A program made the translations under genes and the position numbers. A DNA stretch of 63,013 nt, counting the filler, from Collodictyon triciliatum (Eukaryota), in NCBI GenBank assembly GCA_043381765.1. It is 10 parts of 10 records of this genome, joined end to end, with 100 filler letters (N's around TTAATTAATTAA, not from the genome) between each part and the next. Parts side by side here need not be neighbours in the genome. Positions count along the whole stretch, not along the records: positions 27,902 to 34,101 come from JBHJMP010004645.1; 9 more parts are not named here. One strand, given 5' to 3'. The notes beneath the pieces were generated by a model. That model had not been told where the DNA came from. It saw only the letters and a list, made by a program, of their open reading frames with translations, and did not search any database. This document shows, piece by piece, positions 177 to 59,224 of this stretch. How positions within the stretch are numbered: the stretch's first letter is position 1; every line of letters begins with the position of its first letter.

Positions 177-3100
177 GAAATCAGACGCACTTGCTTTGCT
201 CAACCAATCCGTAAAGATTTCTATTGATGGTCTCGGAGAAAATCACCCAGATGTTATTTCTACTTATGGACTGATAGGAAATATCAACCATGACTTGAAA
301 CAGTACGTATCTAATTCTAGAGCAATATATAAGCATTAAAATATGGTGAATATTGCGCAAAACTTTGGTCAAGATTGAACTTTGTATATTTTTCTTTAGG
401 TACAAAGCAGCACTTGATGCATTCAAACAGGCTTTAGATATTCAAAAGAAACTATTGGGGAATGAACATTTAGAGTGTGCAACTTCGTTGGAAAATGTCG
501 GGCGTGCTCACTTTGAGCTAAACGAGTAATCATATTATTAACTTTACCACTTACATCCAACTTGTAAATATCGTAGCTAGGATTTCATACATCTATTTTT
601 AAGAGGAAAAACCTAAATAAAAAACTATAGGAAAGACAGCGCGTTTGATTACATTAAAGAAGCAGCAAAAATCAGAAGAGAAACAAAAACCTTTATGAGC
701 ATTAAGGAAACTAACCTTATTGAGTCTATGATTAAATTTTGTGTTGATAAGGAAGAGACTGAAGCAGCAGTTCAACTATACAAAACTTTGATTATCAGGT
801 ACGCAGAAAAAACGTCGTACGATGATTGGAACTCATGGATCGCTGGTGATGATCTCAATATTTATTTTAAGAAAAAGAATCTTCATGAATCCGCCATTGA
901 AATCTGGACCGAAATGAGGGACAGATTCACTAAAAAACTAGGATGGGTTCATGACAGGACACTCAATGCCTGTGAATATATTTCGATGAACCATGAAATG
1001 ATAGGCATCTCCAAAGAACCGATCAAGTTCACCAGAGTTCGCTCTTTTATTGCAGAAAACTTACCGTCTGTAAATCCATCAACAAAGTTGAAAAGAAATC
1101 AAATAATAGTATATCTGTTTGAAATACTTCTCCTCTCCAGAACTAACAAGGATAAGTCTGTGGCAGCATCGAATGCAATTACGCTCTTAAACTTTATGAA
1201 TGTTTCCTTTGCCGGCATGGACTTATCAAGAGTAAGCATCCCGTTTGCTAACTTGACAAATTCTATCATTGATAGTGCAGACCTCACTGGGGCATGCCTT
1301 GAGGGCGTGACCTTTTGTAACTCAACTCTTGGAAGTTGTACATTGAAGGAGTCTGATATGAAAAACGTAAGGTTTGGATTCCCATTCAAGGAGCTACTCC
1401 ACCCTAACCCAGTAATCAATGCAATATGTGCGCTTGATGGACCAAACGGGGAATTTTGGATTGCATCCGGCTGCCGAGATAATGCGATAAGGATATGGGA
1501 TTTAGTAACAGGCATCCAAGTATGTTTATTTGAGGGACATACATCTCCTGTCACGTGTCTTTGTGCATTCAACTCTGGGAATGGAGAAGTGTTGTTGTGC
1601 TCAGGGAGCGAAGACAAGACGCTCAGGATTTGGGATGTAAAATCGAACAAGTGTGTGTCTATCATCGAAGGACATTCTAGATACATTCGCTGTGTTTGTT
1701 ATCTGGATGGGTTCAATGGAAATTCATATCTGGCTTCAGGAGGGCAAGATAACGTTATTCGAATATGGGATATTAGTACAGGAAGCCAAGTTAAAGTTCT
1801 TAGAGGACACAGTGGCTCCGTGTGGAGTATATGTTCTGTGCGAACTTCCAACGGAGAATATGCGTTGGCCTCTGGGAGTGAAGATAGCACCATACGCCTT
1901 TGGGATGTCAAGACAGGGACACAGACCAAAACTCTGGAGGGACATACAAAGTGCGTTTATGTCGTTTTAGAGACTCTTGGTCCCAACGGTGAATCCTGGG
2001 TGGCGTCTGGAGGGGATGATAATATGATTATTATTTGGGACGCCGAGACTGGGGACCAAGTGAAAACATTTGATGGCCACAAAAAAGCTGTAACAAGCAT
2101 GTGTAACATCAAAGGACCCAGTGGGGAAAGATGGATAGCTTCGGGTAGCGATGACAAAATCATCAGAATATGGGACCTTCTGACTAATCGACAGCTTAAG
2201 TCGATGGAGGGAAACACTCAGACAGTAAATTGTATTTGCAACATCAGAGGACCAGAAGGTGGGAACTTCTTTGTGTCAGGCGGCAATGATGACAAAGTTC
2301 GAGTTTGGGACTTAACAAATGAATCTCCACTGTATAGACACCACAACACTGAGACAAATTACACGTCCGGTAAGGATATTCTTGCCTTAGAAAACGGAAA
2401 TGATCATGGAAACATGGTCAGGGTAAACAGTACCGACTTTCATCCCTCAAACATCGATGATACTATAAGTCCTCGAAAACACAAGTTTATTAGCAGCTCG
2501 CGCAAGCTGATTGGAGGGGATATATACGCCAAAAGCGTTAAAAGCGTCAGTCTCATCAATAAACAGATTCTTCTCTCGATAGGCGCTGCAACTTTCGATA
2601 GCGACTTTATTAGGTACTGCGAAAATCACACTTACACGAAATTTCAACAAAGAATGATGGTTCTGTGCTATGAGCATGGATGGGGAGTCGAAAGGGATCT
2701 GTCAAAGGCTCACTTTTGGGAAGTCATTGTCCCGCTAAGAGACTCTAAAGACTTTAACAAGCTAAAACTCCTTGCCCGAGATGGATACAAGGACGCTTTC
2801 AGAACCCTTGAGACCTTGATGATTGGGAACGAGACTTACTCTAAATCATCACCGAAGCCCAAGACAAGATTCAATCACCCAGATGCTCTTCAGGCAGTAT
2901 CCCAATGCTACGAGCATGGATGGGGTGTTCAAATGGATACAAAAAAATCTGCAGAATTATACGGAATGGTAGAAAATTTCGATGCACTGACAGAATCAGC
3001 CAGTAAAGGATCGAAAGACTCTTTTAACATGTTAATGGTCTTATCAGAGGTTAGAACAATCGGCAACGGCCCAAGAATCGGTCAGTATGCTTCTGAAAGG

Positions 3101-5002
3101 TTTCAGTATCCGAACGCTGTTGCCAAATTAGCTGAATGTTATGAGAATGGCTGGGGAGTTGAGTCTGACCTCATAAAGTCCTGCGAGCTTTATCTGAAAG
3201 CAGAAAAATATGATGAAATACGCAGACTTTGTCAAAAAGGACACAAATCCATTTACGAATACTTGGTAGAGGTGAAGGAACAAAAGGAGTACGGAAAATA
3301 TAAATACCCTCAAGTTTTTAACATATTGGGTGAATGCTATGAGAAAGGATGGTCTGCCGAGAAGGACATTAAAAAGGCAACAAAAATGTTTAGTCGCTCC
3401 GAAAATCTGGATGAACTCAAAAGATTAAGCCAAGAAGGCTCTAGAGATGCTGTTCTGACGCTGAAGGAGATGGCTGAGATGAAGGACCATGGGAAGTCTG
3501 TACACCCAAAAGCCAACACATTTGTAGGCGAATGCTACGAAAGCGGGTCTGGCGTTGACCTTAATACAAAAAAGGCCTGTGAGTGGTTTTTCAAAGGAGA
3601 AGACTTTGAAGGCTTGAAAAGACTGGCCAAACAAGGTTCAAAAGATGCTGTTCATATGTTGAAGGAATCGTCAGAAATCAAGGACCATGGGGTTCCTGTA
3701 CATACCCAGGTATTTTCCATGATTGCAGAGTGTTACGAGAACGGTTGGGGAACCGAAAAGAGCCTAAAGAAAGCCTGTGATTGGTACAGCAAAGGGCTCA
3801 AGTTCCAGGAGTTAAAGAGAATAGCCAAACAAGGATCGGGTGATGCTTTCCATTTGTTGAAGGAAATGTCCGAAATGAAAGACCATGGCGCTCCTTTATA
3901 CCCACAAGTGTATCCTATTATTGCTGAATGTTACGAAAATGGATGGGGCACTGAGAAGAACGTAGAGGACTCCATTAAATGGTATGTTAGGTCTGAAAGT
4001 TATGATGAGTTAAAGAGGATGGCCAAGCAAGGCTCCAGGCAAGCATTCAAATCTTTGAGGGAACTTGCCGATACTTACGGGACTGGAGAATCAGGCACCG
4101 TTCGGTTGGTTTTGAAAGCTAGAGACAAGATGAAGCACAGCAACCTCCTCTCTATTATCGGAGAGTGTCTGGAGAATGGATTTGGAACTGATAGAAACAT
4201 AGTTGAATCCATACCTTGGTACAAAAGGGCAGAGAATATTGATAGTTTGAAAAGACTGGCCCAAAGGAACTTGAAAGAGGCCTTCCTGCAGTTGTTGGAG
4301 TTATCCGAGGTTGTCGAGCATGGAGCCCTACGTTCACCGCAGGCCTCTTGTGCTGTTGCTGAGTGTTTTGAGCACGGCTGGGGTGTTGATGTTGACTCTA
4401 CCAAAGCCACAAACACCCTCGGTAATGCAGTGATGAGCAACTATAAACCAGCCTACGAGTTGTTGGAAAAGATGGGTACCCAAGGTAATTCTTTGGCGCA
4501 AGCTTGGATTGCTCTGTGTTTCCATAAGGGTTACTGTATTGCTCAAGATTACAAAAGAGCTCATGAATGGTATCGCAAGGCCTTTGAGGGAGGAGTAGCG
4601 TCAGCAGCGAGGAATCTCGGTAATTTATACATGGAAGGGAGTGGTGTCCAAAGAGACCCTTATCAGGGTTTTATTTGGTTTCTAAAAGCATTCCGCTTGG
4701 ATGAAAAGTTTGGAGCAAAGAACATTAGAGACAATTTTGAAACGTTCAGGTCGGTAAACATGACAAAGTCTGAAAGTATTTACCTGAATGCATTTTGTGC
4801 AAAGAACGTTAACGCCAGGAAGTTTTTAATCGATGAGGCTAAATCAGGGAACGTAGAAGTCTTGAATATTCTCGAGTCACTCTACGAAAGGTCTGTCAAG
4901 GTCGTGGCGTCAATCGTTTCAGAATGCTATGAAAATGGATGGAGTGTTGAAGTGGATTTGAAGAAAGCGACTGAATGGAGAGCCAAATCGAGCCATAACT
5001 AA
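177..5002 (+). CDS. 5'-partial multidomain repeat protein: TPR exons (177-302, 400-525) then one exon 631-5002 encoding pentapeptide repeats, ~7 WD40 repeats and multiple SEL1-like repeats
   Basis: Two GT-AG bounded 126-nt exons encode TPR repeats (LGENHPDVISTY, LGNEHLECATSL) and splice in frame into the 1435-aa ORF. That ORF has AASNAITLL..ANLTNS..ADLTGA pentapeptides, GH..WD repeats and CYEnGWG SEL1-like repeats. Confidence 0.9.
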
Positions 5003-5113: not shown

Positions 5114-5213
5114 NNNNNNNNNNNNNNNNNNNNNNNNNNNNNNNNNNNNNNNNNNNNTTAATTAATTAANNNNNNNNNNNNNNNNNNNNNNNNNNNNNNN
5201 NNNNNNNNNNNNN
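5114..5213. other. Artificial contig spacer (N-run, TTAATTAATTAA, N-run); also at ~15183-15282, 21500-21599, 27802-27901, 34102-34201, 40399-40498, 46696-46795, 52994-53093, 59289-59388
   Basis: Identical stop-codon linker embedded in Ns nine times; intervening contigs mostly ~6.2 kb, consistent with size-sorted concatenation. Confidence 0.97.
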
Positions 5214-6417: not shown

Positions 6418-7411
6418 TTCATTTAAATTTATAATAATAATAATTGAGCAACTTATCTTTCGTACATTTTCCACCTGAGCTTTTTCTTTTCACTGCTTTG
6501 CTTTGAATATTTTTCATAAGTAGGTATAAACATGGCATTCAATTTTTCTCTCGATGGAATATTTATTTTTCCCTCCTTTATTATTTTTTATTTCGGGAAG
6601 ATTGTTTTAACTTCCTATCTGATTTTATATTACTCCGCAACGTGGACTCAGGCACATACAGGTCAAGGTCGGACAAGTTCTGTCAGACATGTGGGGTAGG
6701 CAAATACAGTGAAGTTGTTGGCTCGTCGTCGCCATCAAATTGCTTAGACTGCCCTGAAGGAAAATATTGTCCGTTTTCTGCCACGTCTGCTCCCATAGAG
6801 TGCCCTGAAAACTATCGATGCTCTTCAAAGTCAGAGTCTCCCGAAGTCTGCTCTGCTCTCGATGATTCACAACCAGGAGAAAAGGTTTGGCCTCCTTTTT
6901 ATTCAGCCTTACGTCATTTTATGAAAACTGTCCATGGTTGATATATGTTCGGAATATCCCGTATATTTTCCAATCCCAGCATGATTTTTTTTTCCCTTTA
7001 TTCGATTCAAAGCAATCCCAACATGATAACAATATTCAAAAAAAAAAATCTTATTTATCGCCAACAAGTCAAACAATTAAGTGTGCTAATGTGTCCGATG
7101 GATACCTCTATTGCAAATGAAAGTTTATATTTCTCCATGTCGTTTATGAATTATGATTCTCTTTTCCATGAGCCATTCCTCTTACTCTTCTGATGAACCC
7201 CATTTTTTATTTTATTTATTTTTGTTCTTCTCTCAATAATTCCTAGGATTGCGAGAACACCCCAGCCTTTGTCTTGTTAATCCTAGGAATTATCTTTTCC
7301 ATCGCAGTGTACATCGGTCTCATATTCCTTTTTTGGAGACAATACAGAAAGAAACTCTCTGAGGAACGATTGTCTGCTCATAGCGGCCCACAGATTTACT
7401 CCGGACTGTAA
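5916..7411 (+). CDS. 5'-partial Cys-rich (TNFR/ephrin-receptor-like CxxCPxGxY repeats) single-pass membrane protein; exons 5916-6214, 6652-6884, 7247-7411
   Basis: Phase-compatible GT-AG exons: CVPCPRGTY, CQTCGVGKY, CLDCPEGKYC, then a hydrophobic TM (FVLLILGIIFSIAVYIGLIFLFW) and a tail ending YSGL*. Confidence 0.8.
6986..7012 (+). mobile_element. Micro-retroposon copy 1, reading T8-CCCTTTATTCGATTCAAAG on + (poly(A) end on the minus strand), 15-bp TSD
   Basis: Flanked by caatcccagcatgat (6971-6985) and caatcccaacatgat (7013-7027). Confidence 0.75.
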
Positions 7412-27901: not shown

Positions 27902-30825
27902 TTCTGTGGATCATTTGGGTGTCTTCTTTTTAGCTCGCTCTGTCAACTGGCTCGCTGCTTTTGTGGGAATTGTAGCCTTTCTTGGATTCATCATCGCCAT
28001 TCTAGTTTTGGCCATCGCATACCTGCCTGTCTTCGTTTGCTTATGTAAGAACACACTTTCTCTCTCATATACTTTCTGTATTATTTTTTCTTCTTTTGTC
28101 CTCCTCTGCTCACCCACCACTTGTGAGACATAGCGGTAATTAACGGTTTATTCTACATGTATTTTGCTTTATTTTCCATTCGATTCTAATTTTTTTTCCC
28201 TTTATTCGATTCAAAGTCCATTCGATTCTAATTAATGTTGGATATATGATTCCATGGTCAAACAGATTTAGCTTACTTGATCTATGCCACCTTGTACAAT
28301 CTACCAAGCAACAAAGACGAAGATGAAACAGAGGAAGCTGAAGAAAAGAAGGAAACTGGAGAAAAGAAGGAAGCTGAAGAAAAGAAGGAAGCTGAAGAAA
28401 AGAAGGAAGCTGAAGAAAAGAAGGAAGCTGAAGAAAAGAAGAAAGCTGAAAAAAAGAAGGAAACAGAAGAAAATAAGACCGAAGAACATGAAACTCATGG
28501 AAATGATAAGATGAACAAGAATTCAAAGAGTACACCCAAGATTATTAGCAGAGTTAAATCCCAGTTGAAGACAGATGAATCCAAAGCCTATGAAGATAAA
28601 AATGAAAATCGCTCTCAGACTGAAACATCTAGCAGCATATTTGCCTTCGTCAAACGTATATTTCAAAAAGTTCAGAATCAGATTACCGAACAGTCTGATT
28701 TTATATATGGAAAAGATAGCGTGGTTATCAAAATTTTCTACAGCTCTTTGTTTGTCTTCTTACAATGGAGTTGGTTCATGACAAGCCCGCTGTGGTGGCT
28801 TGCATATGTTATTATGCAGAAATTGCGAGGTGAACAAAAGGTTTGTTTTATTCTCTATCTAACACAAATTGATATTTGTTTCACCTCTTTATATGATGCA
28901 TAAAGCCGTTCGTCGAAGTTGCTGTATATACAGAATTTTTTCGCAACCACAAAAAATTAAAAAAAAATTGGGCAATATTCAGCTATGCGAAACGCCTATG
29001 AATCTATCGATATACGCATACGCATACACATGTACATATTTATACTAGAACAAATATCTTTTCTGTCTACATTTCATTAGCTATCCAGCTTACGCACACT
29101 TGCACACAGCAGAAAGATTGTACCATCCACATCTATTCAACAGACAGGCAAATTTTATGAACACTTGCAAAAATGTCAAGTCTTTTGTGTGTCATAGGAA
29201 ATAATCAGCCAATTTAGCCTCTTATTAGACCCCTGCATAATGATACCAACTCTATCCATTACATAATACATGGTTGTATTAGTAATATGTAACACAGGTG
29301 ATGACTCTTGATCTTAGCCGCCCTGTAATATTTATACATATGGTTTTTATTTTCCAGGTACATCCACTCAAGAGACCCCATCGACGGAAGATACCCCGCT
29401 AAAGTCTTCACACTTTCGCCTTTTTGCACGAAAGCAGGATAATGACGCTGTTGTTTTCAACCTGAACAGCTTTGCACCAGAGAACACTCGAAATACCTTC
29501 TTTTTGATGGAGATCGAAATTCTTGCTGGTGAAAAGCTTGAGAAAGGTGTAGAGTCTGAGGGGGAAAACAAGAACTTGACTATTGGACTCTACTTCTATA
29601 TCGATAGGCACGGTGCACAAACGAGAATCACAAAACCTAACTTGATAACTTCGGATGAAAAATCCATTACTATGCAACAAGATTTTGCTGATAAGTGGAT
29701 GCACATGAACGTTGATTCTGTCGCCATCGTACTGAAGAAAGTCCGCATGATTTCAGTTAATTTTGGACAAACGCCATTTTCACTCTTCCAACCAAAGAAA
29801 TATCATGCTCTGGAGCATACCCGACTCATTCCATTTTCAAAGAATGCTTTGGACGTCACCAACGACGGAGTTATTGCATATCATGATAGTAATTCTAACG
29901 AAGAGCTGTTCTCTGTCGCAAATGGGCCGCTTCGCTTCTTTTCCTGTGGCCCTAACAGATATTCATTTGTAGTAAGACTCGCCCGTGTCCAGCTCACCGA
30001 AGATAAAGGTGTTTATTTGGGTCTTGTAATGAACCCAACAAACGGATCGGGGACCACAAAGGACTTCCTTTCTCTCTGCTATTTCTCTGTATCCCTGCAT
30101 ATTACGAGCCAAAAAGTTTCCCTGAAAACGTTTGCCCAAGGGTAAGGAAAGATCACAAAATGAGAAAACAATATGATTGAATATAGGTGTATCTGACCCA
30201 CTCATGAGCCTGCGTGTCAACGACGATATATTTTTTTTTTGATTTCCTTTGTCATCACCTTAAAACAGAAATCTCAATATTAACATGTTTTCTTTGTGCA
30301 CAAAGGCAAGAAATCAGGTTATCCAAGAACAAAACCCGCACTGCTGATATTCAATTGAACGGAAGCGACATTGACCACGTGATTTGCCTCTACGAACAAG
30401 ACAGCTGCGAGTTATCATTCTGGTTTGTCCTCAAGTGTAGTTTGGATGATGAACACAAGCAAGTGGTCAAGACAGAAACAATCAACATGTGCGATCTGCA
30501 TCCGTTCGTCTCGTTGAACACACCCGGAGACGCCGTCGAATTCATCCCGAACCCACTCGACTTTAAGATGTTCAGAGACGAGTTCAATGAGATGGAAGTT
30601 AGAAATCGCGATATCTCGTCGGATGGCAAACAGGAGGGCAGCCACCCGTCCAAATGGGAGAAGAAGGTATCTGTCGAGTGCGAGGGGGTTGGAGTCATTC
30701 TGGGCGAGCAGACCAGCCTCGAACTCCCGAACCAAGCCCATCATGACACCGCCGATACCCACACGAACAGCGGCTCCACCTCAAAGTCCGACGCCAAAAC
30801 CCCCCTTCTGAGTGCACAGCCGTGA
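27902..30825 (+). CDS. 5'-partial membrane protein with an E/K-rich repeat and a possible C-terminal SPRY-like beta domain; exons ~27902-28044, 28266-28829, 29358-30141, 30306-30825
   Basis: Phase-compatible exons and hydrophobic segments; LHPFVSLNTPGDAVEF recalls the end of a SPRY domain (weak). Confidence 0.65.
28191..28216 (+). mobile_element. Micro-retroposon copy 2 (poly(A) end on the minus strand) with an exact 16-bp TSD
   Basis: T7-CCCTTTATTCGATTCAAAG between two copies of tccattcgattctaat (28175-28190, 28217-28232). Confidence 0.8.
28330..28470 (+). repeat. 18-bp coding tandem repeat (AEEKKE)n
   Basis: gctgaagaaaagaaggaa units. Confidence 0.9.
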
Positions 30826-30943: not shown

Positions 30944-31075
30944 TCCTTGGCGCTGCTGCCTTTGAACCGAAGAAAGGGAAAGATAAAACAATGAGTAATA
31001 ATCCCCGGCGCTGCTGCCTTTGAACCGAAGAAAGGGAAAGATAAAACAATGAGTAATAATCCCCGGCGCTGCTGC
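30944..31075 (+). mobile_element. 58-bp tandem duplication with structure TSD-element-TSD-element-TSD (micro-retroposon copies 3 and 4), directly upstream of the TRM61 ATG
   Basis: CTTTGAACCGAAGAAAGGG plus A-rich tail at 30960 and 31018; tcc(tt/cc)ggcgctgctgc at 30944, 31002 and 31060. Confidence 0.7.
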
Positions 31076-47584: not shown

Positions 47585-47766
47585 CCTGGTTTTTCTTATC
47601 CAAGCACAAGACCCAGGCTACAGGCCAAAATGCAGGATGCAATTCCTGATTAGCGACTACTTCTCCGCCACTCGGCAACCAAGTAGCGTCCATGCAAACG
47701 ATGGCTAGCGAACCAAAGCCAACATCTCCACCGTCCTGCACAAAATGGAATGGAAGAATAAAAAAA
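47585..47766 (+). mobile_element. 5'-truncated non-LTR retrotransposon 3' end with A-tail and degenerate TSD
   Basis: QAQDPGYRPKCRMQFLISDYF matches the end of the 51281-51868 ORF; flanks gttgaaaaatttgt / gtcgaaaatattgt. Confidence 0.7.
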
Positions 47767-50700
47767 GGTCGAAAATATTGTATTAATCATACAGATTTTT
47801 TTTTGTATCAATGAAACCCCTTTAATATTGTTGAAATTAACTCAGGATGGACTTTTCCAATTTGGCTATTTTTAATTCATTCATCATTCAATATCATTTA
47901 CGCCTTATGAAAAGTAAAGGTAAAAATTAACTAGGATAGCAAAGTATCAGAATCTACCGTTTATTTGGAATCATAAAAATACCTGTAGAGATTTTCCCAA
48001 ACATGTGTCATAACTGAATCTGGTTGATTAAAGTATAATTTTGAATTTCAAGAAGTCAAATTGAACGGACGACGGTCTTCAGACTATAAGAATGGATAAT
48101 ACATTGCTTATATTTCCAAAATTTTTAGTAATACTGTAGTTGCTAATTAAAAAATAAAGGTATAATTCTTCTGAGTCTGCAAAAATATATACAATATTCT
48201 TGCCGGTTCCGCTGATGCCTATCCTGAGGAAGTTATGCTGGTTTGCCGGCTGTTATATGTTATCTGTTAAATACTAGACATATATAAGTCAAGGGTATTG
48301 AATTTGGAGCCGAATAGAATGAACGAATATAAAGGAATCTGATCGGAAAGGAGAGCAGGGTAGTCGCGTGCACTTTCGCCCCAGGGAGAATTTGGCCTCC
48401 GATCAAATTGAAGTCAGAGTCCTTGGTAGTCGCACCTCTTAAAGGCTGCAACTATTCTCGACCATATCGGTTGTATATTGATGAGCCACAAATTCAAATT
48501 CCATACGCTGCTGGCCTGAACCCCTTAACCGACACATGTCACTGCTTTCAACCAAGATGCAACAACTACGGCGTCCTGTAAAAAATTTAAAAACCCCCTT
48601 CATTCACTTGTATCGAATAAAGGAAAATATGTATAAACGAGGTATTTATTTTTTTTTCCACCAATAGGCGAATCCCATGAAAAAGGCCGAGTTGAGAAGA
48701 GAACAAACAGATCAAAAACCAACCTGAAAGCAAATCCAAGATCTAAGAGACGCTCTTAAAGTCTACATTTGAAGGATCTCCATCGAAGTGATCTTACTGT
48801 GGGCAGAGCAACCAGAGATTCGATCGCCCCGAAGCTCCTGGCAAGCATCACAAACTGCATGAGATTGGAATAGAATTCACTTTAAATTCATGGTAACAGC
48901 GAATTGACAAATCAGCTAAAGCTTCGATAAAAAATAAAAAAAAAGGGATATTTCATATAGTGTGGATGCGTGGCCAACGATGCTTTGCGACAGAAAGGCT
49001 CGGAAATCCGGAAGATCAGCTCTCCTTGGCTCGCGAATAGTTATAATGATAAGGGCCCTAAAACCTCCGCAGGAAGGAGGAATAGTTGAATCTAATGTTT
49101 ATTTGGGTATGTAAATATGTTTTTATGTGTTTTGAGTTTTGGTCGGTTCGTACGTAACATAACTTAGGGATTATGCTGGGCAAGACTAGAGCCAATCACA
49201 TAAAGTTTTGCTGAAGGGACTCATCTTTGGCCCGTTCTTGTTTCTTTTATTTTATTATTATATTTATTTGCCAGCTGTTGATAGACTACCCCATTCTTCT
49301 CGATAAAGTCTTCTGACTTTCTGACATAGGTAAAAGACTTGCTTGGGTATAAACCTCCGCTTTTTGTAAAAAAAAAAAAGAAAATAAAGGTATGTTTTCA
49401 TGTTGTATTATTCAGTTTGCTTGATGTTATGTTGATCGGTGGCTTTTTTTTTGTGTTTTGTTAAAAATAATAAGTGTCCAAGCAAAAGGGATTCTATAGA
49501 TCAGTTGTGTTGTGTATGTCTTTGACTTTGGTTCTTGACTGTCTGTGTGCTTTCGTCGGTGGAAATGAGCTTGTGCTGAAGGCGAAGGTGTATTTAATGT
49601 GTGCTTATGATTCGAGTCTGAAATTGTTCTTGCCGATTTGAAAAAGAGTTGGTCGGAGGTTGAAGTACAAAGAGATAAGTAAATTTTGTTGTTTTCTTAT
49701 TACAAACTCTAGTCGCGCAGAAAAATCCAAAGCAAAAAAACATAGGAAAGTGATGGACGGAGCGAAGGGGAAAAAATGGGGCTAGTGTCTTGGATATCTG
49801 AATAAGCGGGTTAGTGACTATCTCCAAAGTAAATATAGCCTGGAATATTTATTGTTTTCTAATACTGCAACCCATACATCTCTTCCATCACATTATCAAC
49901 TCTTGGTTGATACTTTTTTTTATTTGTAACGGTCTTTGAACAGAGGGAAATATTGCAACTGCACATAATAAAATGTGTATCTATGGAAGGTATATCAACA
50001 TTAACATTCACATTCACAAAACACAAAAACAAAAGCACCAGAACATCGCATTGTATTAGTTGAAGAGAAAAGCACATTGTGCGCATCAAATGGCCACATA
50101 TCAACCTTATCCATTCAGATATCTGATGGAAAGGGATGCAGTCCGTGATCTAAAAAACCAGTAAATCAAAGCACTTTGATACATTTCACTGCTGATTGTT
50201 GCTCTTGAAAGCACTGCTGGCACATATCGCTATTGGAAATCCAAAGTCTAGTTTGCTAGCTTGTTACTTCTTCCTTCTTTTCTTTCTTTTTTTCATTAGT
50301 TTATTGATCAAACACATCGCCAATGATGAATACCGTTTCTTTTTTATTCTATGTTTTTTTTGAAAAGGCTGATATTTTATGCTGGGTTAATTGACGCACC
50401 ACCTTTCGAGTATCTTTATTGACCCATTATAATGGCTTACAAAACCCAACACAAAGCAAAGGCTTATGCTATAACCTTACTTTTTTTTAACTTTACAAAA
50501 GGAATACATGATATTATTGGATATTCTGTAAAAATAATAACTTATTAGATCACTGCTAGAAATATCTTTTTTGTAAGTTACTGATCTCACACTGTCGCTA
50601 AGGTCAATGTGGCTCATTGATTTTTTTTCCTTATATATTTTGTCTAAAGAAAGGGTTTTATTATTTTCCTACAGCCCGCCCTAGTTTTTACGTCTTGGTT

Positions 50701-51280
50701 GAAAGCACCAACGCGTTTTGGATTCACATGCAGGTCGGTGTAGTATAGAAACAAAACTCATGACTCATCTAAATATATCTATTGTGGGTCGAGCTTCTTC
50801 ATACAATCCTTTATAGCTGTAACAACCAAAGCCCTGACTTGGATTCAATCCGAGGCCTAGCTTCCGGCAAAGTCCAAATGACGCAGCTGATTTAAATCAG
50901 ACGATGAATGCGTAACTAGTAGACGCAAGATGCGAAAGTCGCTAATCTCATTTAAAAAAAAGGACTTTCAATTTGGATATAATGCTGTATTTGATTTTTT
51001 TCTATTGTTTGATTGAATGCCTTTTGCCCGTGATAAATATATGTATATGAACTATGCTGACGCACTACAACTCAGTTCCTGAGTAAACTCATTCCACCAT
51101 TTGATGCAAAGCTCTGTTTAAGTGCATCGTTCAAAGAATCCATCGCGTTCGATTAACTTACTTTTCCACGAAGCCGAAGTCAAAGCCAATTTACTTTGCT
51201 AATAAACCCATCTTACTGGGCCATTCTTTGCTATTTTTATTTTGTTTATTTTTCTTTGCGTGTGAGATGAAGTTCCTGTC

Positions 51281-51868
51281 TCAAAGGTGCCAGCCTTCTT
51301 TTGCACTAGCGCTACTTGGTGGCCGGGTGGTGTAGAAGTAGTCGGTAATCAGGAATTGCATCCTGCGGTTTGGCCTGTAGCCTGGGTCTTGTGCTTGCAT
51401 GAGAGATACAAGGCGAGGTTTAATATCTTTATCAGCTTCTTTCCACATGTCTCTTCTCACGGGGTCGGAGTAATAGAGAATATGCAGGTGGTGGAGGAAG
51501 CTGTTGAGGAAAGAGATTTGTGTGATGTCATCCAGCCTATTATCGGGAATGGGTGGCTGGTTGTTGAATCTTGCCTTGCGTGAGTATATGGGTGCTATCC
51601 ACATAGTCCGTAGCAAATGGCCTGGCGTCACTGCCCAGAATGTTTTCGCATCTGAACGCAGCTGTTGCAGAGGCCCAAATATCGCCTGGATTGGGCCAAC
51701 AGCCGCAGCCGTGTTGAGTGTCAGCCGAAGAATCTCACCGGCTGTTTCGCGCAGGTTTTGGGCGAAGGGACATTGCACAAATGTGTGTTCAATGGATTTA
51801 TCACCGTTGCTGCTCATATGCATTGTTGCGAGACTTTGCCAGCTTTTGTCGCGCGTGTGCCTATCCAT
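51281..51868 (-). mobile_element. Degenerate LINE (L1/Tx1-like) ORF2 C-terminus, zinc-knuckle region
   Basis: SIEHTFVQCPFA (zf-RVT-like ExxxH..C pattern) followed by W..R..RF; intronless; second copy at 47585. Confidence 0.7.
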
Positions 51869-53218
51869 AGCTCCCTATTGATGAGATGACATAAAGCAGC
51901 CGAAAACATTACCAAAGCCAAGGGGATGCAAACCATACCATAACAAAAAAAGTAATTGGTTCACTCTGTATAATATCGACATATAATATTTTGATTTCTC
52001 TTGACTGCGACACGTGAAAAAAGAGAGAACAAGTATGAGTCGTATGTTATGCCATCTCGTCTAGTGGTGTATATCCAAAACAATATTATGTCTATTGGTG
52101 TATGTCCGGTGATAAGTAGCATTCAGTGGCGTCCATTCAGTCGTGTGCTCCATCAAGACGGATTGAACACAGTTCTGTTATATTCATAAATCTAAAGCTT
52201 CTGGAAACACATACCTTTTTTTAACTTTCTACTTTTTTGTATCATAAATATTTGTGTGCAACGCGACTGGGCAAATAACAATAAAGCAAAAATAAGAATA
52301 TTTGACTCTGCTTTTGCTTTGCAATCTCCAAAAAAACACGTCTGATATGCTTCGCTTCTTCGCTAATCACTTGCATTTCTTTTTTACTCTTGTTTTTTTT
52401 TTCATAGAGCTCATATTTGTTTGACGCTATAATCCGCCATTTGTCTACCAATATATATTAACGCGCGATTTTATTTGGTGTTTTCTACAGTGTTATATCG
52501 AGAAAGTAAATCCGTAGAAAACGTTTTATCTGTGGGCACATAAATTTACACAGGCTAGTTTTGAAAGATTTTATTAAGTTTTTTTCTTGATTAATGCAGA
52601 TGTTGAAGTTTATGATGACGAATAGCTTAATAACTAAATATTGTTTTCAATATGTATAGACATAGTCACATGAAAATTTTTAATAGGAAGCCAACTTATA
52701 TGACTTTTTGGAGAGTGCTTACTGCATGGATGGGTTGGTTTCTTCGTATCGAGGATTTTATAGATGTCTAATCTGATTTACCTTTTTAATACCCATTCGG
52801 ACTTGAACACTGTATATAAGCAACATGTTACAACCAACATATCGATATACTTTTTCATGAAAAAATTAATCAAGTACAATCAAATGATATTTATTTATTC
52901 TAGATATATAGAATAAATAAATATCAGAATTCTGGTCGTTTAATTAATTTCGCGTTTATATACCCGATCTAACTTCCTTATATGGATAATTGTNNNNNNN
53001 NNNNNNNNNNNNNNNNNNNNNNNNNNNNNNNNNNNNNTTAATTAATTAANNNNNNNNNNNNNNNNNNNNNNNNNNNNNNNNNNNNNNNNNNNNTTAAAAT
53101 TAAAAACAAAAAAAAAAAACCAAAAAAGATTTAAATTACATGGGATTAACTATTCACATAATTTAGTAATTCAGGTGCGCTGTTTCTTCTTCTTTTTTTT
53201 TTTTTTTAATACTCATAG

Positions 53219-56200
53219 ATTACAATTTCCGAACATGCCCTCACCATAGGAAACTTTGATTCTTCAATCACCATATCCAATGCTCGCATGGTATTATCAA
53301 ATTTTTCCCTTTTATTCGATTCAAATGATATTATCAAATGTAATCAGATAGATTCAATAATTTAATGCAAACCTTGAAATATTATCAAATGAACCACATT
53401 AAAGAAATGGGTTACTTCTGAACTTAAAATAACTCATTTCAGGCTTTAGATATTTCATCTACGTACCAGTCAGTCAATCAAAATGATTCATTGAGGTGTA
53501 AAATCGAGAAAATCAATTATTTTTTCTTTATTGTTTGTGTAAATAAGCTCTCAATTATTCTGGCACAAAAATACACTCCTGTTCTGCAGCTGATCATCTC
53601 ACAGTGTTCCTTCATATTTCTGTTAGCAACGTATGCGATTGGTTGGTTAAAAATATGCAATTGACTGGACTTGATACAAAACTTCATTCATTTTCACCCA
53701 AGAGCAAGAGCGTGGAAGGCTATAATGTTGTAGGGAGAATCAGGGCTAGAAAGGGATCCGGGAAAGATGCTATCATGATATCCTTTCCGTATATTAGTAA
53801 CGGTTAAGATGCTCATATGGATAAAATATATAAATAGTCATCAATAAGACGAATCTTGGGCTATTTTCTTATTTCAAATATGAAATGCAGCAAGCGAAAC
53901 TATTATTGAATTGAAGAGTGCTTCGGCTAGAGTTGGACTGGCTTTTATGCTGATGCGGCATTTTAAACGTGACCTGAAATTCAAATTTATGTGTAACAGT
54001 GTTTATGATTATTTTTTTATATTCATCTTTTCATTTTGCAAAATATCAGAGGGGCTGGCCTTGATTTGCTATAAAATACAATATCGAGATGTAATGTAAA
54101 ATACTTTTGGATTAAATATACTGACTATTTTGTATGATACGCGGATTATAGTTGTTCCATGGCTTCATAAAGATATATATTTCCTCGCTTTTGATGGGAG
54201 GTGGAAATACAACGAAGCAGTCGATGAATGGCTCAAAACGGCTTTTTTTCCAGGTTTGCAATTGAAAGAAAAGCATTCCAGTAACCGCGTACACATATTA
54301 AAAAAATTGTAAGCTAGTATATAATAACATAACTTGTTAGTCGCTGCAGCGCTTTTTGCATAGTATTCATTTTGAGTACTTTTGTAAACATTTCCTCCCA
54401 TGAACATTAGAGATGAATTCCACCAGCCCATTTCTAAACCCCGGCTCAATAATTGCATCCTTATCTTTGGAATTCTCTAATAGAAATGCTGAGCGTTTGT
54501 CCCTTCTTGGGCGTAAGTGATAATTATACAATAAAAAAGTATTGAGGCTATACAATTTAAAAACAAATCAAAATATTCACTTTTATTACTGTCACCATTG
54601 AAAGTTGGCATTAATGGGCAGCTCCCTGACATGGACATTCTTGCGACAATTGCCCATAATTCAGAAGTAATACCGGTTATACTTAAAATAAAAGAAACTG
54701 ATTCAAAAAAGAACTTTTGAGCAATGCAATTGTACAGCTTCTAAATCGAGATATGCAATCTACTCATTTTCCCCTGTAGTATCAGCTTGCCCCGTATAGA
54801 AGGTCAGTGGCCTTTTTTTTTTAAAAAAAAAAATTAATAATTTTAAAGCCGAATTAGACTTACGTGGATGGTACATTTTCTTCTTCTTCTTCTTCTTCTT
54901 CTTCTTCTTCTTCTTCTTCTTCTTCTTCTTCTTCTTCTTCTTCTTCTTCTTCTTCTTCTTCTTCTTCTTCTTCTCTATCTTGCCTACATCTTGCTTATAT
55001 CTACAGCGATTTATATATTTTGTCCTACTAGGCTCTACGACATTTTTAGCGTCTTTCCTGTAGACTTATCTGGAATGTTTACTTTCATGACGGAACAAGC
55101 TATCGGAGTCCCTAGAGGAGCTCATGCTTATTTCATGAAGTAACGGCTGATATATTGACTCTTTTCTGATTGCATCAAGTATTCAATAGCATGTGAATCG
55201 CAGATATAACATACCAGGCGCAACTATATCGGACTTGCAGACTGAGGTTGAAATGAATGAAAAGGATGTTGGGGTGGAGTTTATGTACTCGTTGGCTAGG
55301 TAGCATTTGTATATTCAAATAAATATCAAACTTGAGGTCCAGACATATTTATCTGGCCAATTTGCTTTTTTTCATTGTAGTTAAATATCACGACTTTCTT
55401 AAAAATTTCTTAAGTATGATAGCCATTATATAATGGCCTATACCTAAACACACAATACGTTATCTCTATTGAACCCAGCGGAGTTACAGCATCTCACTTC
55501 ATCCTAACTTATCCTATCCTAGAACTATTGATCAATCAGTCAGAAGTTTGAATAATCTAATTGAACCACTGCACGCATCATTTCTTTTTTATCTACTGCC
55601 ATCAATGAAAACAGTCATACCAAGCTCCGAGTACTCTGTCGCTTTGATTCTGGTTCTCTTATATGGAGTGCTAAAGGTATAATTGGACACTACTTCCTCA
55701 TACGATTATATATGCAAAATATTGACCCGTAGGATGATATTATATCCTTTTGATCCGTTTTCAACCTAAAGTTCCTACTAACAGCTTCTTTCTTTTAAAA
55801 AAAACGAAAAAAATTCTGTTGTCATGAATAGGCATGTTCCATCCTAATATTAGACCTTGATATCAAATTTCGTAACGTGCTCTGGTCTGTGTTGTGTATT
55901 GTCGTTGCCACACTCGGCTCTATGGCCCCACATTTGTGTTGGTTGCTCCCATTAGAAATTGAGCCGTGGATGGTAAAAATATATATATAAAATACTTGTT
56001 TAGTTTGTGTTTTCCTTTCCTTTTGTCCCATTTCTTGGCGATTAAAAATAATCTAGTATATATAAATCGATGTACATGCGATTGCGACTTTTAAAACCAA
56101 CATCTACCTCAGATCATTAGCGGATGGTCCACGTTCTGCACAGTCTTTTCAATAGCATACACCAAATTCATAGTCCCTTTCATCACACACATGACGCTGG

Positions 56201-56604: not shown

Positions 56605-57272
56605 ACATATACGACATTCAGATAAGCACTGATACCCCATTCAATCTCTTCTCTTTGGACAGACACCATACGCGAGTGAATGCATCGTGGATATGAGTAC
56701 CTTGAAACGAAATAAATGAGATATAAATGAGAATGTTGCTCTCTTAAAGTCACTTTTTTTTTTTTTTTTACACTTCCTCTATTCTTTATATTATTCCTTC
56801 TTTTTCTTCATCTTCATCATTATCTTTTTTTTCTTCAACATTTGAACGGCTCAGTTCTGTTTCATGCGAGCAGGGAATCTACCAGACGTGACAGCTGATG
56901 CTACTCAATGATTTATTTATTTGGTTTACTTAGTACTGCCTGCTGATGAGAGAAAGTCGTTACTCTGACTCAGATAATACCGAAAGCCAATTCCAACATC
57001 TCAATATCATACAAGGCATTTAAAGTATGAAAGGAAGAATTAAAAATGAAAATACCCTTTTGAATTCAATTATGTAATATATATATATATGTATTTGTAG
57101 ACATATACATAAGAAGTAATGTGCTTAATCCCAATGTTGATGCCTTTAGTCTCTGAATAAAGAGGATTGTGGTGCGCTTTAATCCGCGCGATGCACTCAA
57201 TTCTAGAATATATGACATTCGATTTACATACCCCTTGAATGGTGATTAGATATCTTATCTTTTATTTTCTCA

Positions 57273-58790
57273 TCAATGACCGAGCTGCTGAGGAAATAGA
57301 CTCTGAGAGTCACATTGCATCGGATAAGGACATAAACATTTCCCATCCATCCTAGCTCGTCTGAAAGTCACCGAGATTCTTCGTTGTCTCACTATTTCTT
57401 GTGGTTTAACACCTTCTTCATAAACGCCTGCATGAATTACTGCGTCCACTTTTCGGTCGGGGATTTGGTGATCCAAAAGGTATCTTGCTTGACCCGTCAT
57501 TATGAGAAGTGAGCGACGTGGAAGAAGAATGTTTTTGGTATCTTCAGACTCTGTATGTATCAATCTGTGTTTTCCACTTGATATGTCTTCGAGAGGTAGT
57601 CTAAATTCCATTACACAGTCGGATCCAAGGCTAATGGAAGCAACTTCATCCTAAAGCATGGTTATAAATGAATGGCGATTGTTATGAAGTAATATTCATT
57701 TATGAGACTTGTGTTATCCACCAGCACTCTGAATGCTAATAAAAATACCATGAAAGAAGAATGCGAGTCAACATGAAAACGTATTCCTTGCCCTGGTTGG
57801 TAGTCATTCAGCGTCAGTTGTGTGGGGCAAGACGGAAAAAGGCCCATGCCTTTTAGTTTTTCGGAAATACTTTGGTATGGTGTGGGAAATGGTGTAGGTT
57901 CCCTGTACACATCTAGCCTTCTCGTCTGAGATGAGAAGGAAGCGGAAAATGAGAATATATAAAAAGTTATCAAGGTCTATGGTTGGTAATGTCATCAAGA
58001 AAGTTAACTAGAAATTACTTTAACATAAACATAGGATAAATCAAAACTTGATAATTAAATTCAAATCCAAAATGTTGCACTCTTCTCCTTTGGATATTGT
58101 CAATCCAACAATTTTCATCCGTGTATTTTATCAGGTACTCTTCCTCCTCCTTTTGATAAGTTTTAAATAAGCCTTTACTTAAGAAGGATAATTTTTGTAT
58201 GTTAGAAGGATTATTACCAGAGATATGAAGTCTTTTATGACTTTGATTCCGTCAATAGATTCAGGGTCCTTGTTTAGCAATTGGGGAGGGGATTTTCTCA
58301 ATATTATTTTCAGAAATATAAGCACATATGTATAATAGTCATAATAAGCTATTAAAATTGCTATATATTACATGAAGGATTGTAGGTCCAGGTGTTTTCA
58401 ATAAAGAAATTTTTGTTTCGTCCTTGTTTGAGAATCTTGCGTTCATTCGCATTCCATTGATGAAAGAAAATTCGCCTGAATTTATTCTCTGAAAGCACAA
58501 TCCCGAGGATTCGATATGGGAAAAAGATACTTGTAATTGTCCAGATTGTGCGGAAAACTGAAGTGACTCTATAGTTCCAAATTCTTTCTTTAATTGAGTC
58601 CAAATACTATTGCCATCATCATAAGCTGTAATTGGCATCATCTTTTCTATTTCCCAGGTGATATGCAAGTGTCTTGTAGAGCCCAACTTTACAGCTGAAT
58701 ATTGAGAACAACGAACTGGCGTTACTTTTTCCAAAAAAATCGGTTTCTCTATACTTTGGCTGTCTGGAGAGTCTGTATGTAGCCATGAAA
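57273..58790 (-). CDS. ALKBH8: ALKBH8-like tRNA hydroxylase (RRM + AlkB + Zn motif, no methyltransferase domain); first exon not resolved
   Basis: RRVQHFGFEFNY, QLTLNDYQPGQGIRFHVDSH, SISLGSDCVMEF, LPRRSLLIMTGQARY..H, RISVTFR, CLCPYPMQCDSQ. Confidence 0.88.
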
Positions 58791-59082
58791 CTAAAAATCA
58801 GTTACATTGTGATATATGAACATAATATATTGCTTCATATGTAATATTTCAGCCATTATTGCGTTGGTTCATTCTGAAGAAAAAAAAGTATTAGAAGATT
58901 CAGGGGTCATCATCATTTACTCGTTCATAGTTTTAGTACAATAGGCTATTTGGATGAAGAGGCATCGAAAGAAATGTGAACGGGAATAATATAATAATCA
59001 TAATAATAATAATCATAATAATAATCATAATAATAATCATAATAATAATCATAATCATAATCATAATCATAATAATAATCAT

Positions 59083-59107
59083 CTTTGAATCGAATAAAGG
59101 AAAAAAA
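59083..59107 (+). mobile_element. Micro-retroposon copy 6 inside an (AAT/AATCAT)n microsatellite
   Basis: CTTTGAATCGAATAAAGG-A7; TSD not resolvable within the repeat. Confidence 0.65.
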
Positions 59108-59224
59108 TCATAATCATAATCATAATCATACTAATAATATTAATAATAATAATACTAATAATAATACTAATAATAATACTAATAATAATACTAATAATAC
59201 TAATAATAATACTAATAATAATAC

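What the first reader, a model, noticed from the sequence alone, without database searches (positions are those of the whole stretch)
28175..28232. Ultra-short (~19 nt + A-tail) dispersed retroposon family with 15-16 bp target-site duplications
Seen: CTTTGAATCGAATAAAGG(G)-A(n) occurs at 6986-7012, 28191-28216 and 53303-53324 (A-tail on the minus strand), and at 30960, 31018 and 59083 (plus), with a degenerate copy at 48607-48627. That is about one copy per 10 kb, on five unrelated contigs. Four sites have 15-16 bp flanking direct repeats (exact at 28175/28217), and five copies begin at the same CTTTGAA. The body can fold into a CTTT(G)/(T)AAAG stem, and the substitutions in copies 3 and 4 leave the CTTT/AAAG pairs intact. 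Known: an A-tail plus ~15-bp TSDs is the hallmark of LINE target-primed reverse transcription, but SINEs are normally much longer and 5' truncation points are normally variable. Inference: either a defined tiny RNA is being retroposed, or a LINE reverse transcriptase reproducibly stops at its own 3' stem-loop.
Basis: partly seen in the sequence, partly recalled or inferred. Interest (0 to 1): 0.85.

Follow-up and report, generated by a model that had tools for sequence, protein, structure and literature searches.

The report
Tiny tail-only copies of a LINE
The 19-letter repeat with an A-tail is the very last piece of a jumping gene of the LINE type, pasted into new places after almost none of it was copied; this is an ordinary kind of event, odd only in that every young copy stops at the same letter.

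Summary
The repeat is real. CTTTGAATCGAATAAAGG matches 7 times in the window at up to 3 mismatches, against 0.15 expected.

Four matches are clean insertions of 18-19 nt plus A5-A9. Three of them have abutting 13-15 bp direct repeats.

It is not a stand-alone tiny retroposon family. A metagenome contig (L002) carries the same 18-mer plus A10 as the last letters of a LINE. There it follows an ORF2 C-terminus with a zf-RVT domain and a ~95-nt 3'UTR. Full-length relatives have endonuclease + reverse transcriptase + zf-RVT.

The window also holds a truncated LINE of that superfamily.

So these are extreme 5'-truncated, tail-only LINE copies made by target-primed reverse transcription.

- **Still unexplained:** all four young copies start at the same base, give or take one.
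- **Not supported:** the proposed stem-loop (MFE 0).
- **Multi-copy elsewhere:** RNA-run contigs of two related organisms also hold the unit many times over.
- **Seen before:** this scan noted truncated LINE tails mistaken for tiny retroposons in another genome, C. merolae.

No whole genome was available, so there is no census.

The parts
6970..7027 (-). s1: tail-only LINE copy. Body 6994-7012 (19 nt), A9 at 6985-6993, flanking direct repeats 7013-7027 and 6971-6985 (14 of 15).
28175..28231 (-). s2: tail-only LINE copy. Body 28198-28216, A8 at 28190-28197, exact 15-bp duplications at 28217-28231 and 28175-28189. It lies antisense in a GT..AG intron (28045-28265) of a + strand gene.
   Evidence: (joint 28044>28266 in X1 and X2)
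53289..53339 (-). s3: tail-only LINE copy. Body 53307-53326 (ATTTG..AAAAGGG, possibly lacking base 1), A5 at 53302-53306, duplications 53327-53339 and 53290-53302 (12 of 13).
59066..59124 (+). s4: tail-only LINE copy. Body 59083-59100 (ends GG, as in L002), A7 at 59101-59107. It splits an ATC/ATA microsatellite, so the duplication is ambiguous (15 of 17).
30949..31075 (+). 58-bp unit in 2.2 tandem copies: GGCGCTGCTGC + CTTTGAACCGAAGAAAGGG + a 28-nt A-rich stretch. Possibly an older copy with the same 5' boundary that was later duplicated between its 11-bp flanks. It lies between the poly(A) site of one gene (~30903) and the ATG (31084) of a TRM61/GCD14-like gene. Uncertain.
48500..48627 (+). 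Repeat C: a longer (at least 110 nt, perhaps ~250 nt) retroposon 3' end. It ends ..TTCA|CTTGTATCGAATAAAGG + AAAA(TATG..).
50620..50750 (-). Repeat D: inverted partner of C (77% over 62 nt by blastn). It ends ..ATATATAAGG + A8.
51215..51960 (-). Copy B: a 5'-truncated, frameshifted LINE ORF2 C-terminus plus a short 3'UTR with a different tail (..CTCACACGCAAAG + A-rich). It belongs to the same superfamily as L002.
   Evidence: P0090: 46% identity over 171 aa, E 4e-45
47585..47770 (+). Copy A: a short fragment of the same LINE 3' end as B (85% over 125 nt), in inverted orientation.

Best explanation
The 18-19 nt unit is the extreme 3' end of the RNA of an L1/Tx1-like, poly(A)-tailed non-LTR retrotransposon (LINE). 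The LINE's endonuclease nicks an AT-rich target. Its reverse transcriptase primes on the poly(A) tail and copies only the last 18-19 nt before the cDNA is joined to the other side of a staggered break. The result is body + A-run between 13-15 bp target-site duplications.

Shown here:
- the insertion anatomy;
- the 18-mer + A10 as the terminus of a LINE;
- relatives of that LINE with endonuclease + RT + zf-RVT;
- LINE debris of the same superfamily in the window.

Inferred: that this LINE's protein made the copies.

Unknown: why all young copies stop at the same base. My guesses, in order of preference:
1. The LINE RNA is cut at a fixed site (..CA|CTTTG..), and the 3' fragment that remains bound to the protein is used as template.
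2. The enzyme has a strong early release point just past the ~19 nt it holds.
For: 1. Insertion anatomy. There are four units of 18-19 nt + A5-A9. Three have abutting direct repeats of 14/15, 15/15 and 12/13.
2. A window-wide scan looked for an A-run of at least 6 followed by a 12-mer repeated within 600 nt upstream (up to 1 mismatch). Apart from tandem arrays it returned s1, s2 (listed twice, the second row being an overlapping match within s2) and one other, doubtful site.
3. Parent element. L002 (minus strand) reads: ORF with zf-RVT PF13966 (E 1.5e-7, 32.4 bits against a cut-off of 27.5), then a 3'UTR, then ..GCTACA|CTTTGAATCGAATAAAGG|A10. It was 1 of 4 metagenome hits and 1 of 7 hits in both collections. 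It is the only one with CT in front and a long A-run behind.
4. A phmmer search of the L002 ORF against 1.84 billion representatives found 14 proteins. One is 98% identical. Four have 1226-1275 aa, and all four carry Exo_endo_phos + RVT_1; three of the four also carry zf-RVT.
5. The window holds a truncated copy of the same superfamily at 51305-51927(-).
6. Repeat C/D in the window runs at least 110 nt upstream of a degenerate 18-mer + A-run.
7. The longer copies share CA before the unit: L002 ..TACA|CTTTG and C ..TTCA|CTTG. Three RNA contigs of X1/X2 run on as ..GAACA|CTTTG (table 7).
8. Independent data. The 110-nt bin holding the unit has summed contig depth 375 (X1) and 259 (X2), against 0-50 in the other 29 bins. 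Records 2-4 of X1 cover only 28183-28224. A DNA-run contig (X3 record 12, no differences) starts inside the unit and crosses its 5' junction.
9. The bottom-strand nick sites implied by this orientation are AATT/AATG, TGAT/AACA and AAAT/GTAA (read). All are T/purine in AT-rich DNA, as recalled for L1-type endonucleases.
Against: - The parent with the exact 18-mer comes from a metagenome contig of unknown organism, not from this assembly. No whole genome was held.
- The one LINE fragment in the window with coding homology (copy B) has a different tail.
- Ordinary 5' truncation gives scattered lengths. Here 4 of 4 young copies start at base 1 or 2, and searches with four sub-motifs found no shorter or intermediate young copy in 63 kb. 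That fits a defined template RNA as well as, or better than, random fall-off.
- No structure explains a stop.
- 4 of 4 junctions show no shared microhomology with the parent's ..ACA (read).
- The target of s2 resembles the unit itself: it shares the 9-mer GAATCGAAT (11 of 12), p <= 0.0065 against 4000 random windows. Simple target-primed reverse transcription does not predict this.
- Only four copies were available, so there is no census.
Confidence: 0.78

Rival explanations
1. A separate, non-autonomous 'micro-retroposon'. A discrete RNA of ~19 nt + poly(A) has a defined 5' end, either transcribed from a master locus or produced by site-specific cleavage. It carries just the LINE's 3' recognition module and is mobilised in trans, as a SINE reduced to its tail.
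For: - The 5' end is uniform in 4 of 4 young copies, and in the founder of the 58-bp tandem unit.
- The copies are nearly identical: 19/19 between s1 and s2.
- The last ~20 nt are the only part shared between L002's 3'UTR and repeat C, as expected for a conserved recognition module.
- In the RNA runs X1 and X2, only 6 of 43 and 6 of 30 laid records fit the stretch only in part, while depth piles up on the unit. This would fit many copies whose flanks differ right at the unit's ends. It is an inference from summary tables; 63 pieces were not shown.
Against: - 19 nt cannot hold an internal promoter, and no master locus was seen.
- No Rfam family matches anywhere in the window (0 matches).
- No tRNA-like head was found (0 tRNA genes).
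- Longer elements with this terminus exist (L002 and C/D).
- No small-RNA data could be laid.
Confidence: 0.17
2. Template switch. The A-run is copied from the poly(A) of one RNA, and the enzyme then jumps to a separate ~19-nt RNA ending in GGG-3'. This would resemble the known U6/L1 chimeras.
For: GGG lies exactly at the body/tail junction in s1-s3. This looks like an acceptor end. The resemblance is an idea, not a test.
Against: In L002 the same sequence is contiguous with the LINE's 3'UTR and tail, so no jump is needed. s4 and L002 have GG, not GGG.
Confidence: 0.03
3. Not mobile: a short functional motif, a chance recurrence, or an assembly or library artefact.
For: The unit contains AATAAA. 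The window consists of small unplaced contigs.
Against: - 0 of 100 shuffles reach 7 matches.
- The abutting duplications of 12-15 nt are site-specific.
- The unit or its junction is present in contigs of three other runs.
- The full text of 8.4 million papers holds no such string, for example as a published oligo (0 papers).
- AATAAA sits 3 nt from the A-run, whereas the one mapped mRNA end in the window lies ~21-27 nt after its AATAAA.
Confidence: 0.02

Closest known systems
5'-truncated ('dead-on-arrival') copies of L1/Tx1-type poly(A) LINEs made by target-primed reverse transcription
   Same: A-tail and variable 13-15 bp target-site duplications. The unit is identical to the 3' terminus of an element whose relatives have APE endonuclease + RT + a C-terminal zinc knuckle.
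   Different: The copies keep only 18-19 nt of the element. All four young copies break at the same base, whereas truncation points normally scatter (general knowledge, recalled).
SINEs that carry a LINE-derived 3' tail for recognition by the partner LINE (PMC5786205, abstract seen in the listing)
   Same: The mobilised piece is exactly the partner LINE's 3' end. The 5' end is defined.
   Different: There is no head, no body and no room for a Pol III promoter. The shortest primate SINE named in the literature I searched is ~100 bp (Platy-1, PMC4864456, abstract seen), about five times longer.
Truncated LINE tails in Cyanidioschyzon merolae noted earlier in this scan (e1-555848, e1-556212)
   Same: Tiny poly(A)-tailed repeats with 12-bp duplications, first read as a new SINE or retroposon, turned out to be front-truncated LINE copies (AI notes, not checked by me).
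   Different: Another organism and another LINE. Those copies were longer (116-217 letters), and no fixed breakpoint was reported.

Membership tests
5'-truncated copy of an APE-type poly(A) LINE | 3' poly(A) run directly after the element's last base | tested here: met
   A9, A8, A5 and A7 at s1-s4; A10 in L002
5'-truncated copy of an APE-type poly(A) LINE | Target-site duplications of variable length abutting both ends | tested here: met
   14/15, 15/15 and 12/13 at s1-s3. s4 is ambiguous because it lies in a microsatellite.
5'-truncated copy of an APE-type poly(A) LINE | Sequence identical to the 3' end of an autonomous element encoding endonuclease and RT | tested here: inconclusive
   There is an 18/18 match to the terminus of L002, which has only the zf-RVT end of ORF2 because the contig ends. 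APE + RT are seen only in relatives at 29-38% identity. L002 is not from this assembly.
5'-truncated copy of an APE-type poly(A) LINE | Scattered 5' truncation points | tested here: not met
   4 of 4 young copies start at base 1 or 2. Longer copies exist only as the old repeats C/D and as L002.
SINE | Internal Pol III promoter or a small-RNA-derived head | tested here: not met
   The body is 19 nt. There were 0 Rfam matches and 0 tRNA genes in the window.
SINE | 3' tail shared with a partner LINE, and a defined 5' end | tested here: met
Stringent-type LINE 3' end (structured RNA recognised by the RT) | Stable, conserved 3' stem-loop | tested here: not met
   MFE 0 kcal/mol for the unit. The last 74 and 124 nt of L002 give z +0.58 and +0.79.

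The most novel reading that the evidence does not exclude
The last ~19 nt plus the poly(A) tail is itself the unit of retroposition. A discrete 19-nt + A(n) RNA would arise, for example, by a site-specific cut of LINE transcripts at ..CA|CTTTG.., by host slicing or by the element's own processing. It would stay on the LINE protein and be inserted genome-wide. That would make it by far the smallest retroposon known, and a direct read-out of the minimal RNA that this reverse transcriptase needs.
Probability: 0.2. Interest if true: 0.7.

Novelty: new variant of a known kind. Interest (0 to 1): 0.3.

Why it matters
In kind this is ordinary LINE debris, so the high first-stage score does not hold.

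What is worth a specialist's glance is the fixed 18-19 nt breakpoint at a density of about one copy per 15 kb. If it holds genome-wide, it marks either a precise cut in the LINE RNA or the length of template the enzyme holds at initiation. It would also give a natural measure of the minimal 3' module that an L1-like reverse transcriptase accepts.

For annotators, such 27-bp insertions are invisible to standard repeat maskers. Here one sits in an intron and another may sit just upstream of a gene's start codon.

Tried and rejected
- **Whole-genome census:** impossible, since no genome is held for this window.
- **Exact 23-mer scans** of metagenome contigs and genome contigs: 0 hits each.
- **Relaxed 21-mer scans:** 4 + 3 hits. 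Six look like chance, with no CT in front, no long A-run and bacterial or unrelated context.
- **18-mer in viral contigs:** 1 hit without a tail, taken as chance.
- **Paper search for the 18-mer:** 0 papers.
- **Rfam at gathering threshold and ARAGORN** on the window: nothing.
- **Pfam on 144 window ORFs of at least 80 aa** (145 passed my filters; the 1461-aa one had been scanned): no RT, endonuclease or transposase family at E <= 0.001. Copy B was found only by tblastx/tblastn.
- **Word-index search for long homologues of the L002 ORF:** none.
- **Naming the organism:**
  - The Sel1/WD40 protein has only 20-30% identical relatives.
  - The one VTC hit is a Diphylleia rotans transcript at 59% identity. 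This is a weak hint only.
  - The Atlas gave no usable taxon.
  - The runs that hold parts of the stretch are mostly labelled freshwater, but only X1-X4 were laid.
- **Target-site duplications for repeats C and D:** none found.
- **A 606-bp 'insert' at 56754-57359(-)** with A16 and an 11/12 flanking repeat. The repeat lies in the coding end of an AlkB-like gene, and about 0.4 such matches are expected by chance (my estimate). Left open.
- **Microhomology at the 5' junctions:** none shared.
- **Reverse orientation (T-run as the 5' end):** rejected, because the implied nick sites then show no pattern.
- **Earlier notes of this scan:** none for this genome, nor for look-alike stretches.
- **Supplementary files of papers:** not consulted.
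Full report
**What the window is.** The 63,013-base window is a chain of unplaced contigs. Most are about 6.2 kb, and they appear in descending size order. They are joined by N44-TTAATTAATTAA-N44 linkers.

The contigs carry ordinary eukaryotic genes: WD40+Sel1, VTC/SPX, myosin, Ras/Arf, Gaa1, TGT, a GCD14/TRM61-like gene and an AlkB-like gene. The genes have GT..AG introns, and microsatellites are abundant. No whole genome is held for the window.

I could not name the organism. The runs that hold parts of the stretch are mostly labelled freshwater. The only informative protein hit is a Diphylleia rotans VTC transcript at 59% identity, which is a weak hint.

**The observation.** The 18-mer matches 7 times at up to 3 mismatches, against 0.15 expected; 0 of 100 shuffles reach 7.

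Four matches are clean units:

| Site | Body | Tail | Flanking repeats |
|---|---|---|---|
| s1 | 6994-7012(-) | A9 | 14 of 15 |
| s2 | 28198-28216(-) | A8 | 15 of 15 |
| s3 | 53307-53326(-) | A5 | 12 of 13 |
| s4 | 59083-59100(+) | A7 | ambiguous |

In s3 the first letter can be read as part of the duplication, so that copy may start at base 2. s4 lies inside a microsatellite, which is why its duplication cannot be asserted.

Searches with four sub-motifs found no shorter or longer young copy.

I scanned for any A-run followed by a 12-mer repeated within 600 nt upstream. Apart from tandem arrays, it returned s1, s2 (listed twice, the second row being an overlapping match within s2) and one doubtful 606-bp case.

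The other three matches are different things:
- 30960 and 31018 are one 58-bp unit in a perfect 2.2-copy tandem array.
- 48606 has no duplication. It ends a longer repeat (see below).

The seven sites lie on four contigs, not five. The proposed stem does not fold: MFE is 0 kcal/mol, and 200 of 200 shuffles fold at least as well.

**Independent reads.**
- RNA-run contigs of two related organisms were laid on the stretch. X1 and X2 carry a SMART-type oligo in a loose end, and the long exon pieces differ from the window at about 2-5% of letters (13/599 to 34/722, records 5, 9 and 10).
- Both splice out 28045-28265 as a GT..AG intron, so s2 lies antisense in an intron.
- The 110-nt bin with the unit has summed contig depth 375 (X1) and 259 (X2). 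The other 29 bins have 0-50.
- X1 records 2-4 cover only 28183-28224.
- Contigs that continue past the 5' boundary do so with unrelated sequence. Three of them read ..GAACA before CTTTG.
- A DNA-run contig (X3, no differences) starts inside the unit and crosses its 5' junction.
- Limits: 63 pieces were not listed, and contigs cannot give copy numbers. I take from this only that the unit is real and multi-copy in relatives.

**The parent.** Exact 23-mer scans of the metagenome and prokaryote-genome collections found nothing. A relaxed 21-mer found 4 + 3 hits.

Six of the seven look like chance. The seventh, L002 (1157 bp), has the full 18-mer preceded by CA and followed by A10.

Read on its minus strand, L002 contains:
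- an ORF open to the contig end with a zf-RVT domain (PF13966, E 1.5e-7, above the curated cut-off);
- one frameshift;
- a stop about 95 nt before the tail;
- the ending ..GCTACA|CTTTGAATCGAATAAAGG|A10.

A full HMMER search with the ORF found 14 proteins. One is 98% identical and reads through the frameshift. Four have 1226-1275 aa, and their C-termini match. All four have Exo_endo_phos + RVT_1, and three of the four also have zf-RVT. That is the ORF2 architecture of L1/Tx1-type LINEs; the clade name is from my own knowledge.

**LINE debris in the window.**
- tblastx and tblastn place a 5'-truncated, frameshifted copy of the same superfamily at about 51215-51960(-). P0090 matches it at 46% identity over 171 aa, E 4e-45.
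- Its 3' end shares ..CTCACAC with L002's ..GCTACAC, but then reads GCAAAG + an A-rich stretch. It therefore belongs to a family with another tail.
- A short inverted partner lies at 47585-47770.
- A second inverted pair, C (to 48627, + strand) and D (to 50620, - strand), is alignable for at least 110 nt and perhaps about 250 nt. C ends in ..TTCA|CTTGTATCGAATAAAGG + A-rich, and D ends in ..ATATATAAGG + A8.
- A-C and B-D keep the same order and orientation, which suggests one old inverted segmental duplication. I did not resolve this.

**Explanation.** The unit is the 3' terminus of a poly(A) LINE, and the four young sites are tail-only copies made by target-primed reverse transcription. The implied first-strand nick sites are AATT/AATG, TGAT/AACA and AAAT/GTAA, each a T followed by a purine in AT-rich DNA. 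The opposite orientation gives no pattern.

**What stays unexplained.**
1. The breakpoint. All four young copies, and the founder of the tandem unit, start at base 1 or 2. No hairpin explains this, and the junctions share no microhomology.
2. The s2 target. It carries the 9-mer GAATCGAAT (11 of 12) found in the unit itself, p <= 0.0065. s1 and s3 have 7-mers nearby (p ~0.1 each), and s4 has none. This could be RNA-target pairing, insertion into an older copy, or chance.

A defined 19-nt + poly(A) template, produced by a cut in the LINE RNA or from a locus of its own, therefore remains a live rival. I give it about 0.17-0.2.

**Comparison with what is known.**
- 5' truncation of LINEs is textbook.
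- SINEs borrow LINE tails (PMC5786205, abstract seen).
- The shortest primate SINE named in what I searched is about 100 bp (PMC4864456, abstract seen).
- I found no paper holding the 18-mer. I did not make an exhaustive literature search for fixed-length tail-only LINE copies, so I do not claim that the phenomenon is absent from print.
- This scan had already met tiny poly(A) repeats that proved to be truncated LINE tails in C. merolae (AI notes, unchecked).

**Verdict.** The repeat is real and is a retroposition product, but it is LINE debris rather than a new class of element. Interest is 0.3. The fixed 19-nt length deserves a genome-wide census.

Noticed in passing
window 5114-5213 and eight further linkers: The window is a chain of unplaced contigs in descending size order (most about 6.2 kb). 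They are joined by N44-TTAATTAATTAA-N44 six-frame-stop linkers, so neighbouring contigs are not linked in the genome.
   Followed up: yes
window 47585-48627 (+) and 51960-50620 (-): There are two inverted blocks. Each holds a LINE 3' fragment followed, 370-620 nt later, by a second repeat of about 110-250 nt ending in a degenerate version of the 18-mer. The same order and orientation suggest an old inverted segmental duplication, or a composite element.
   Followed up: partly
window 28175-28189 / 28217-28231: The s2 target TTAGAATCGAATGGA|AAATAAAG resembles the inserted unit itself: the 9-mer GAATCGAAT, 11 of 12. Unexplained.
   Followed up: partly
window 56754-57371 (-): A 606-bp stretch ends in a genome-encoded A16 and is flanked by GTGACTTT[C/A]AGA (11 of 12). 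The upstream repeat lies in the last codons of an AlkB-like (2OG-FeII_Oxy_2) gene. It could be a retroposon insertion into the gene's end, or chance.
   Followed up: partly
window 31074: RNA contigs of both relatives (X1, X2) match the TRM61/GCD14-like gene from 31074 onward. Upstream they read an unrelated ..CTAATCAAAGA. This could be a 5'UTR intron ending at ..GCAG|GGGATGG, or a lineage difference caused by the 58-bp tandem unit.
   Followed up: no
window 28044/28266, 28838/29079, 30140/30305; ~30903: Three GT..AG introns (221, 240 and 164 nt) and an mRNA poly(A) site about 21-27 nt after an AATAAA, all read from RNA-run contigs.
   Followed up: yes
window 617-5002 (+): An intron-less 1461-aa ORF with WD40 propellers and Sel1 repeats. 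Its best public relatives are only 20-30% identical over residues 600-1300.
   Followed up: partly
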